Both the position numbers and the translations under genes were made by a program. Positions 52,241-53,392 of a DNA stretch of 64,000 nucleotides are shown piece after piece. Numbering within the stretch: position 1 is the first letter of the stretch; the number at the start of each line of letters is the position of its first letter. The DNA lies in contig OZ250169.1 in the NCBI GenBank assembly GCA_965237955.1, forward strand, positions 352,001 to 416,000, given 5' to 3'. The notes below the pieces were generated by a model, which was not told the DNA's origin, made no database searches, and saw nothing but the letters and a program-made list of their open reading frames with translations. The stretch is from Candidatus Marinacidobacterales bacterium (GTDB lineage Bacteria > Acidobacteriota > Vicinamibacteria > Marinacidobacterales > SMYC01).

Positions 52241-52417
52241 AGTGCTGGATGAGTTCGAGGTTTGGCCAATTCGAATTCCGCTCTTGGCTTCTCCTCAGGC
52301 GCGATCTAGGTGTAGAGTGTCTTCTCATCGGGTGGGCTATTAGCTGAAAACCCCGGCCGATCAGCCCGGTGCTTGCGCTGTTTTCTGTTGGTGATGTGTA
52401 CGCATCCATTTAGCGCG

Positions 52418-52750
52418 TTTTCCCCCGCATGCGCGGGGATGGACCTATTACCGAGCCGCTTCCAGATCAGGTCGAGAAGTTTCCCCCGCATGCGCGGGGA
52501 TGGACCCAACTATTCCCGGAAACGGCTGGAGGATTTGAAGTTTCCCCCGCATGCGCGGGGATGGACCCAAGTCCGACTGGGCTTGGAAGCGTTTTGTAAT
52601 GTTTCCCCCGCATGCGCGGGGATGGACCCAGAGATACTACCAGACGCTGCGGCGTTCGTCTGTTTCCCCCGCATGCGCGGGGATGGACCTCATCGCTGCG
52701 CGTCCTAACATGAAGCGTTACTGTTTCCCCCGCATGCGCGGGGATGGACC
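52418..52750 (+). CRISPR. CRISPR array A: 6 repeats GTTTCCCCCGCATGCGCGGGGATGGACC (28 bp), five 33-bp spacers, type I-E-like
   Basis: 61-bp period: repeats at 52418, 52479, 52540, 52601, 52662 and 52723. Confidence 0.97.
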
Positions 52751-52787
52751 CCATGCGCGGACAGAACGAAGCCGGAACCTCGACCAC

Positions 52788-53252
52788 GTCTCCCCTCGCT
52801 TCGGCGGGGGGAGTGGATTGAAACCTCAAAGGCCTGCTCAACACATTGACTACCCCGGGGCTCCCCTCGCTTCGGCGGGGGGAGTGGATTGAAACCTCAA
52901 AGGCCTGCTCAACACATTGACTACCCCGGGTCTCCCCTCGCTTCGGCAGGGGAGTGGATTGAAACGTCACGGAAGTCGTGACCGCCGGGAACCTGGCGGC
53001 GTCTCCCCTCGCTTCGGCGGGGGGAGTGGATTGAAACATCAACACTCAGGGCGACTTCATCCACGACATCATGTCTCCCCTCGCTTCGGCGGGGGGAGTG
53101 GATTGAAACCCGTACATCGATCCGTACGGCGGCGATTCGATCATGTCTCCCCTCGCTTCGGCGGGGGGAGTGGATTGAAACGCTTGTTCAGCCTGTTGGC
53201 CGAATTGAAACGGCGGTCTCCCCTCGCTTCGGCGGGGGGAGTGGATTGAAAC
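52788..53252 (+). CRISPR. CRISPR array B: 7 repeats GTCTCCCCTCGCTTCGGCGGGGGGAGTGGATTGAAAC (37 bp), six 34-35-bp spacers
   Basis: Repeats at 52788, 52859, 52930, 53001, 53073, 53145 and 53216; ATTGAAAC 3' handle (class 1, I-C-like); cut by an element end at 53281. Confidence 0.97.
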
Positions 53253-53392
53253 AAACAGCTTCCAGGCACCGTGCCGACCGCGTCCTGTGCCAAAACTCGG
53301 CCCTTTTGAAATAGACCATAAATCAGTAGCTTAGTGCCCCCCGTGAGTATAGATTCATCCGTATTCCGACCACTCCCCAGGCTTCGTGCTGC

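What the first reader, a model, noticed from the sequence alone, without database searches (positions are those of the whole stretch)
52368..53335. Two CRISPR arrays of different types fused in tandem, with no leader or cas genes, boxed by mobile ends
Seen: six 28-bp I-E-like repeats are followed, after a single 37-bp spacer (52751-52787), by seven 37-bp ATTGAAAC-type repeats in the same orientation. The linker is longer than either spacer class (33 and 34-35 bp) and contains CATGCGCGG, 9 bp identical to repeat A. A MITE fragment occupies the leader position and an element end cuts the last spacer. Inference: either a deletion-made hybrid, or a portable two-system guide cassette whose single transcript could feed two Cascade types in trans.
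Basis: partly seen in the sequence, partly recalled or inferred. Interest (0 to 1): 0.7.

Follow-up and report, generated by a model that had tools for sequence, protein, structure and literature searches.

The report
Two CRISPR array scraps fused
Pieces of two CRISPR arrays from different immune systems sit joined head to tail among transposon wreckage, and because the genome lacks the genes needed to use the first piece this is most likely a recombination leftover, of a kind that also turns up in unrelated bacteria, and not a working two-system cassette.

Summary
The fusion is in the sequence: six 28-nt type I-E-like repeats, a 37-nt linker, seven I-C repeats. The I-C repeat is identical to that of the host's complete I-C locus 3.2 Mb away, with no shared spacer. 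The I-E repeat occurs nowhere else in the genome, and I-E cas1, 2, 3, 6 and 8 were not found, so only one of the two Cascades is there. The linker has an ordinary I-C spacer length. The borders are unmatched: a cut MITE on the left, one of about 640 ends of an IS481-like family on the right. The same IS bounds cas-less array scraps elsewhere in this genome and in relatives. A same-family genome has I-E and I-C loci in tandem, which one deletion would fuse in this order. Mixed I-E/ATTGAAAC-type arrays also occur in at least 11 unrelated loci, where the trailer keeps repeats of another system. No leader, promoter match or spacer target was found, and the junction is unverified by reads. This scan noted fused arrays before on other DNA. 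Verdict: real, likely debris; only the I-C half could work in trans.

The parts
52244..52367 (.). Scrap of a repeated sequence that elsewhere lies beside a 431-aa ORF (serine-recombinase-like by my recall of the sequence; not scanned)
   Evidence: 30 other BLAST matches of 85-125 nt at 81-92% identity among the rows shown; context of 5 copies
52368..52417 (.). First part of a MITE of about 166 bp, with an internal deletion of about 26 nt, broken off in its middle; occupies the leader position
   Evidence: 27 copies of its inner motif; length from two copies in relatives; the MITE-to-array joint is bridged without mismatch by contigs of runs X1, X2 and X4, two studies
52418..52750 (+). Type I-E-like array scrap: 6 repeats of 28 nt, 5 spacers of 33 nt
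   Evidence: only copies in the genome; 23 of 28 bases match the repeat beside an I-E operon in G018 (my count); hairpin
52751..52787 (+). Junction linker, 37 nt: most likely an I-C spacer or a chimeric spacer; begins with a base that completes a top-scoring target of the IS, then a 9-nt match to repeat A
   Evidence: single copy in the genome
52788..53252 (+). Type I-C array scrap: 7 repeats, 6 spacers (first two identical)
   Evidence: consensus repeat identical to the 53-repeat array beside cas3-cas5c-cas8c-cas7-cas4-cas1c at G000:3.616-3.627 Mb; no spacer shared with it
53253..53280 (+). Last I-C spacer, cut to 28 nt by an IS end at a preferred target
   Evidence: target score in the top 0.6% of random 6-mers
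53281..53841 (.). 561-bp non-autonomous derivative of the IS481-like family: two inverted ends around passenger DNA

Best explanation
This is a leaderless, cas-less hybrid of an I-E array piece and an I-C array piece, likely joined by a deletion or illegitimate recombination at the edge of the sixth I-E repeat inside an island that an IS481-like family appears to be cutting up. Shown: the two repeat types, the loss of both leaders, the IS end at the right border, and the same IS at the borders of other array scraps. Inferred: the join removed whatever lay between an I-E array and an I-C array (a tandem pair as in relative G018, or two separately acquired scraps), possibly starting from an IS attack at the end of repeat A6. 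Predicted function: the I-E half is dead in this cell; the I-C half would give at most five distinct guides to the host I-C Cascade, and only if stray transcription reaches it; it could not gain spacers without a leader.
For: Repeat A has no other copy in the genome. I-E genes: only cas11e, cas7e and the first 27 codons of cas5e at 969.5-971.0 kb; 20 I-E proteins from three genomes gave no I-E cas1, 2, 3, 6 or 8 orthologue by tblastn, and profile searches for cas6e, cas8e and cas5e were blank. The IS family has 643 ends in the genome, concentrated in islands, no target duplication (0 of 140 elements with a 4-nt direct repeat), and in 0 of 54 testable elements do both flanks come from one empty site, so its copies sit between unrelated DNA. 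Its best target within repeat A is the repeat's 3' end plus one base, the exact place of the junction (top 0.07% of random 6-mers), and an IS end sits at that place in two relatives (L007, L016). IS-bounded array scraps: 5 of 6 A-type loci examined, 4 of 7 B-type loci examined, and a second scrap in this genome at 718.4 kb. G018 (same family) has a full I-E locus and array followed about 15 kb later by a full I-C locus and an array with the same B repeat, on the same strand; its Cas7e is 98% identical to this genome's I-E scrap. Repeats A and B align at 23 of 28 A positions with three gaps. The I-C leader is single-copy; no promoter match in 51700-53900.
Against: No IS end or chimeric repeat is left at the junction, so the IS role there is circumstantial, and the target motif follows three other A repeats as well. 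The G018 I-E repeat differs from repeat A at 5 of 28 positions, so G018 is a model of the layout, not the donor. The linker keeps a spacer-like length and both flanking repeats are intact, which random joining would rarely give. Five of seven B repeats are perfect and all three folded variants keep a hairpin, which fits recent arrival but also use. The genome is 98% complete with 6.2% contamination, and the profile controls rang in only 1 of 14 control genomes, so absence of I-E genes is 'not found', resting mainly.
Confidence: 0.55

Rival explanations
1. Inherited hybrid from a system swap: in a donor, an I-E cas-leader module replaced the I-C module by recombination at a repeat, added I-E repeats at the leader end and left the old I-C array at the trailer; a piece across the boundary was later cut out and lodged here.
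For: This pattern is seen elsewhere. 4 of 8 hits of a scan of 185,579 genomes are I-E arrays ending in ATTGAAAC-type repeats; three have a full I-E operon on the leader side, and none of the four genomes gave an I-C cas7 while G000 did. The reverse order is clear in 9 of 17 metagenome hits, 7 distinct loci, one with cas1c on the leader side. Several have both repeats intact around a spacer-length linker, as here.
Against: In the four I-E-first cases the relic is one or two repeats, often chimeric or decayed; here it is seven nearly perfect repeats identical to a live system of the host. No long array with repeat A (up to 2 mismatches) was found in 40 relatives.
Confidence: 0.2
2. Assembly chimera: the two halves come from different strains and were joined in the assembly.
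For: The assembly has 6.2% contamination and two 24-kb I-G regions at 94.7% identity sharing only 3 spacers, which may be two strains.
Against: Single-contig assembly; the halves share no long exact overlap that could mislead an assembler; similar natural hybrids exist; the left border is confirmed in runs of two studies.
Confidence: 0.1
3. A working distant I-C array: read-through transcription from the left delivers the B repeats to the host Cas5c, adding foreign spacers to its I-C immunity; the I-E part is a passenger. Compatible with the origin in the best explanation.
For: B repeat identical to the host's and a complete I-C operon; spacers new to the host. Isolated arrays can work in trans (bioRxiv 10.64898/2026.04.27.721218, abstract; PMC7145637, passages).
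Against: No leader; no promoter match, and a weak terminator-like site at 52367-52380 just ahead of the array (4 found against 1.9 in shuffles). The working isolated array in the preprint keeps a near-identical leader. No spacer target found.
Confidence: 0.11
4. Portable two-system guide cassette: one transcript feeds I-E and I-C Cascades in trans, and the unit moves between mobile ends.
For: Both repeat types are intact and in the same orientation; both fold as hairpins.
Against: No I-E Cascade found in the host; unmatched borders; one copy only; not found in 54 other genomes of the order and no array-like hit among 300 genomes of the class (judged from the matched text; matches were about at the level of the reversed control).
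Confidence: 0.04

Closest known systems
Distant and orphan CRISPR arrays (Bernheim et al., PMC7145637; passages read)
   Same: Short array more than 20 kb from its cas cluster; the paper reports 23% of arrays distant and 12% orphan, and both shorter than arrays in loci.
   Different: Here two subtypes are fused; one half has cognate cas in the genome and the other does not; both leaders are gone.
Isolated I-F array CRISPR3 of Pseudomonas aeruginosa PA10145 (bioRxiv 10.64898/2026.04.27.721218; abstract and outline only)
   Same: Array far from cas, associated with mobile elements, repeat type shared with the host system.
   Different: That array has a near-identical leader, is active and acquires spacers; this one has no leader and mixes two types.
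Mixed-repeat arrays of Pyrobaculum (PMC3396285; two passages read)
   Same: One array with two repeat variants, ascribed to homologous recombination or repeat copying.
   Different: There the Cas type is kept; here the repeats belong to two subtypes with different lengths and processing enzymes.
MITE-interrupted, cas-less array remnant of Haloquadratum walsbyi HBSQ001 (PMC3119063; passages read)
   Same: Small leftover array damaged by a mobile element, judged non-functional.
   Different: One repeat type, leader kept.

Membership tests
Type I-C array | Repeat matches one linked to a cas5c-cas8c-cas7 operon | tested here: met
   identical to the host array beside the I-C operon
Type I-C array | Hairpin repeat and I-C spacer lengths | tested here: met
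   repeat 3 has a weaker hairpin
Type I-E array | 28-nt hairpin repeat, 61-nt period, like repeats beside I-E operons | tested here: met
   23 of 28 to the G018 repeat; no operon seen beside this exact repeat
Active CRISPR-Cas locus | Leader and promoter upstream of the first repeat | tested here: not met
   MITE scrap in place; I-C leader single-copy elsewhere; no sigma-70 match
Active CRISPR-Cas locus | Cognate Cascade, Cas3 and processing enzyme for the I-E half | tested here: not met
   only cas11e, cas7e and a cas5e head
Active CRISPR-Cas locus | Cognate Cascade, Cas3 and processing enzyme for the I-C half | tested here: met
   in trans, 3.2 Mb away
Active CRISPR-Cas locus | Transcription and processing into crRNA | not testable with these tools
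   no RNA holder listed
Active CRISPR-Cas locus | Spacers match mobile elements | tested here: inconclusive
   7 viral scans gave seed-only hits, best 24 of 34; phage and plasmid BLAST gave no spacer hit
Composite transposon or mobile cassette | Matched ends of one element enclosing the cargo | tested here: not met
   cut MITE on the left, unrelated outward IS end on the right
Composite transposon or mobile cassette | Same unit at more than one site | tested here: not met
   one copy in G000; not found in 54 other genomes of the order
Distant array (Bernheim definition) | More than 20 kb from any cas cluster in a genome that has cas | tested here: met
   cas1 genes at 155, 514 and 3,620 kb; nearest other array at 438 kb, 33 kb away (its genes were not annotated)

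The most novel reading that the evidence does not exclude
CRISPR arrays serve as landing pads for other CRISPR-Cas subtypes: the GC-rich core shared by I-E and I-C repeats lets an incoming cas-leader module recombine into a resident array of the other subtype, so fused arrays are a recurring, polar record of system replacement in both directions across phyla. In this lineage an IS481-like family that joins unrelated DNA then scatters leaderless array pieces with foreign spacers, some of which the host I-C Cascade can read.
Probability: 0.3. Interest if true: 0.55.

Novelty: new variant of a known kind. Interest (0 to 1): 0.3.

Why it matters
For this locus, little: it is probably wreckage. The wider pattern has some value. 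Arrays that change subtype part-way, with the leader-side repeat matching the adjacent cas genes in 4 of 4 typed cases, would date and orient replacements of one immune system by another, and they will be mis-called by tools that assume one repeat per array. If the I-C half is transcribed, IS-driven capture of array pieces would be a route to import immunity without spacer acquisition.

Tried and rejected
Read support: 21 runs hold part of the stretch, at best 51% of its words; no RNA holder listed. Five runs were laid (X1-X5; three samples, two studies). No contig bridged 52751-52787 and no listed piece covered a B spacer. These are contigs, tables are cut and the source run seems not to be among them, so this shows nothing either way; the junction stays unverified. 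Spacer targets: no self-match longer than 18 nt apart from the IS-end bases; the linker's 20-nt core had no viral hit; cores of B1, B3, B4, B5, B6 and A4 gave 23 loci, none above 24 matching bases; A1, A2, A3, A5 and B7 were not scanned against viral contigs. No spacer shared with 175 pooled I-C spacers. Rfam gave only a sub-threshold CRISPR-DR9 match. The class-wide junction pattern gave 20 other matches that do not look like arrays (the loci were not opened). Dropped from the hybrid counts: 4 of 8 genome hits as chance (L041, L043, L045, L047); of 17 metagenome hits, 3 decayed I-C end repeats (L061, L062, L076), 1 chance (L074), 4 uncertain (L067/L068, L069, L072). The two scans used different collections, so the two orders cannot be compared in frequency. 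A cas8c search of the four hybrid genomes had no positive control and was replaced. Whether IS copies replace a nearby segment was inconclusive: 5 of 30 had flanks within 20 kb elsewhere. Literature: six searches for cross-subtype fused arrays gave no description; most hits were seen as listings only. Two papers I recalled as relevant are not held; PMC8865420, PMC8616872 and PMC10370329 (passages) did not bear on it. No supplements were read; array tables there could hold such cases. My notebook gives the MITE as 203 bp; one search shows about 166 bp.

Full report
Observation. The window lies at G000:C1:352,001-416,000 of a single 8.13-Mb contig, 98% complete, 6.2% contaminated. The array is as described: six 28-nt A repeats with 33-nt spacers, a 37-nt linker, seven B repeats with 34-35-nt spacers, all on one strand. 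The linker length is normal for I-C: 19 of 52 host spacers and 45 of 175 pooled spacers are 37 nt or longer. And the borders are not a pair: the left is a break inside a MITE, the right an end of an unrelated IS family pointing away from the array. The 9-nt echo of repeat A in the linker is rare by chance (1 of 175 spacers; 78 of 20,000 random 37-mers) and may be a relic of a seventh A repeat; I cannot settle this.

What the halves are. Repeat B is identical to that of a 53-repeat array at 3.616-3.620 Mb beside cas1c, cas4, cas7, cas8c, cas5c and cas3. None of the window's spacers is in that array or among 175 I-C spacers pooled from fetched loci, so the B half likely came from another strain. 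Repeat A is I-E-like by period and by 23 of 28 identity to a repeat beside an I-E operon in G018, and has no other copy in G000. The only I-E genes found are cas11e, cas7e and the first 27 codons of cas5e near 970 kb among transposase pieces. By established knowledge, I-E crRNA needs Cas6e and interference needs Cas8e and Cas3, so the A half cannot work here; I-C crRNA is cut by Cas5c, which is present.

Setting. The island is a patchwork: a truncated ThiF-family gene, an IS3-like element, a DUF6527 gene, then two repeat scraps and the array. The IS family at the right border has 643 ends in the genome; transposases seen with such ends score best, below cut-off, as IS481. It leaves no target duplication (0 of 140), and in 0 of 54 testable copies do the two flanks come from one empty site. 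Its preferred target occurs in both repeats; the best site in repeat A is its 3' end plus one base, which is where the junction lies. Cas-less array scraps with such an end at or next to a repeat are common in the group: 5 of 6 A-type and 4 of 7 B-type loci examined, a second scrap in G000 at 718.4 kb, and in G033 a B array cut by these ends with ten repeats inverted. So the leaderless, IS-bordered state is the local norm and needs no special function.

How the two types came together. Two routes have support. First, deletion between neighbours: G018 carries I-E cas, I-E array, debris, I-C cas and a B array in that order on one strand, and G000's Cas7e scrap is 98% identical to G018's. Second, system replacement: a pattern scan of 185,579 genomes gave 8 hits, 4 of them true I-E arrays that end in ATTGAAAC-type repeats (an Acidobacteria, a Binatia, a Nitrospira and an Alkalispirochaeta MAG by record title). 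Three have a full I-E operon on the leader side, two have a chimeric repeat crossing over in the GC-rich core, and none of the four genomes gave an I-C cas7 (G000 as positive control). The reverse pattern in metagenome contigs gave 17 hits, 9 clear (7 distinct loci), 4 uncertain, 4 rejected; one has cas1c on the leader side. Repeats A and B align at 23 of 28 positions with three gaps, enough to make recombination at repeats plausible (inference). I favour a late deletion-type join here because the B half is seven nearly perfect repeats, not a decayed relic, and the join is at the IS's best target; against this, no IS end or chimeric repeat remains at the junction.

Function. The I-C leader is single-copy at the main locus; no sigma-70-type promoter was found in 51700-53900. 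The B repeats still fold, so stray transcription could yield up to five distinct I-C guides. No target was found for any spacer tested. Contigs of two studies bridge the MITE-to-array joint and carry A spacers 1, 3, 4 and 5 without mismatch, so the left half is real and shared between populations. The A-B junction itself has no independent confirmation.

Comparison. Distant and orphan arrays are common (PMC7145637, passages); isolated arrays with a leader can be active (bioRxiv 10.64898/2026.04.27.721218, abstract); mixed repeats within one Cas type are reported in Pyrobaculum (PMC3396285, passages); MITE-damaged remnants in Haloquadratum (PMC3119063, passages). Six searches found no account of arrays fused across subtypes, but the library lacks most subscription papers and two that I recalled. 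Earlier notes of this scan report fused arrays in a methanogen, a Chloroflexota island and a cyanophage, each read as a leftover (unchecked), and the same IS family without target duplication.

Verdict. A real (about 90%) hybrid array scrap; it resembles a distant I-C array with an I-E passenger, and fails membership as an active locus or a mobile cassette. The dual-Cascade reading has about 4% odds. New variant of a known kind; interest 0.3, carried mostly by the recurrence of cross-subtype fusions.

Noticed in passing
G000 genome-wide; e.g. window 49732-49790, 53281-53841, 56287-56347: IS481-like family with 643 ends, a 1,428-bp full form, no target duplication, and flanks that never come from one site (0 of 54): each end seems to join a separate target, which would make it a joiner of unrelated DNA. 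23 of 50 scraps between outward ends are unique in the genome.
   Followed up: partly
L042, L044, L046, L048, L063-L066, L070, L071, L073, L075, L077: Mixed I-E and ATTGAAAC-type arrays in both orders in unrelated organisms; leader-side repeat matches the adjacent cas in 4 of 4 typed cases. L046 may carry a third repeat type after the second.
   Followed up: partly
G000:C1:718,390-718,510 (L003): A 120-bp I-C array scrap (partial repeat, spacer, repeat, partial spacer) between two IS ends.
   Followed up: yes
G000:C1:969,470-971,100 (L004): I-E scrap: cas11e, cas7e, cas5e head; Cas7e 98% identical to that of G018, which is in another genus.
   Followed up: yes
G000:C1:136,600-160,900 and 495,900-520,200: Two copies of a 24-kb region with Cas1 and arrays of one repeat (69 and 60 spacers, 3 shared; 94.7% identity): duplication or two strains in the assembly. 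A further array with another repeat lies at 438.1-440.9 kb.
   Followed up: partly
window 49745-50560 and 51815-52240: ThiF-family gene cut at its start by an IS end and a DUF6527 gene, separated by an IS3-like element; may be a broken defence operon.
   Followed up: partly
L097 (G033:C3:4,746,472-4,757,208): An I-C array split by an IS3 transposase and by the IS481-like ends, with ten repeats inverted.
   Followed up: partly
G000:C1:3,629,674-3,633,328 (L002): BREX-3 pglZ next to the I-C operon.
   Followed up: no
G000, 27 sites: A MITE of about 166 bp with short inverted ends; the same end motif precedes a transposase-like ORF in L018.
   Followed up: partly
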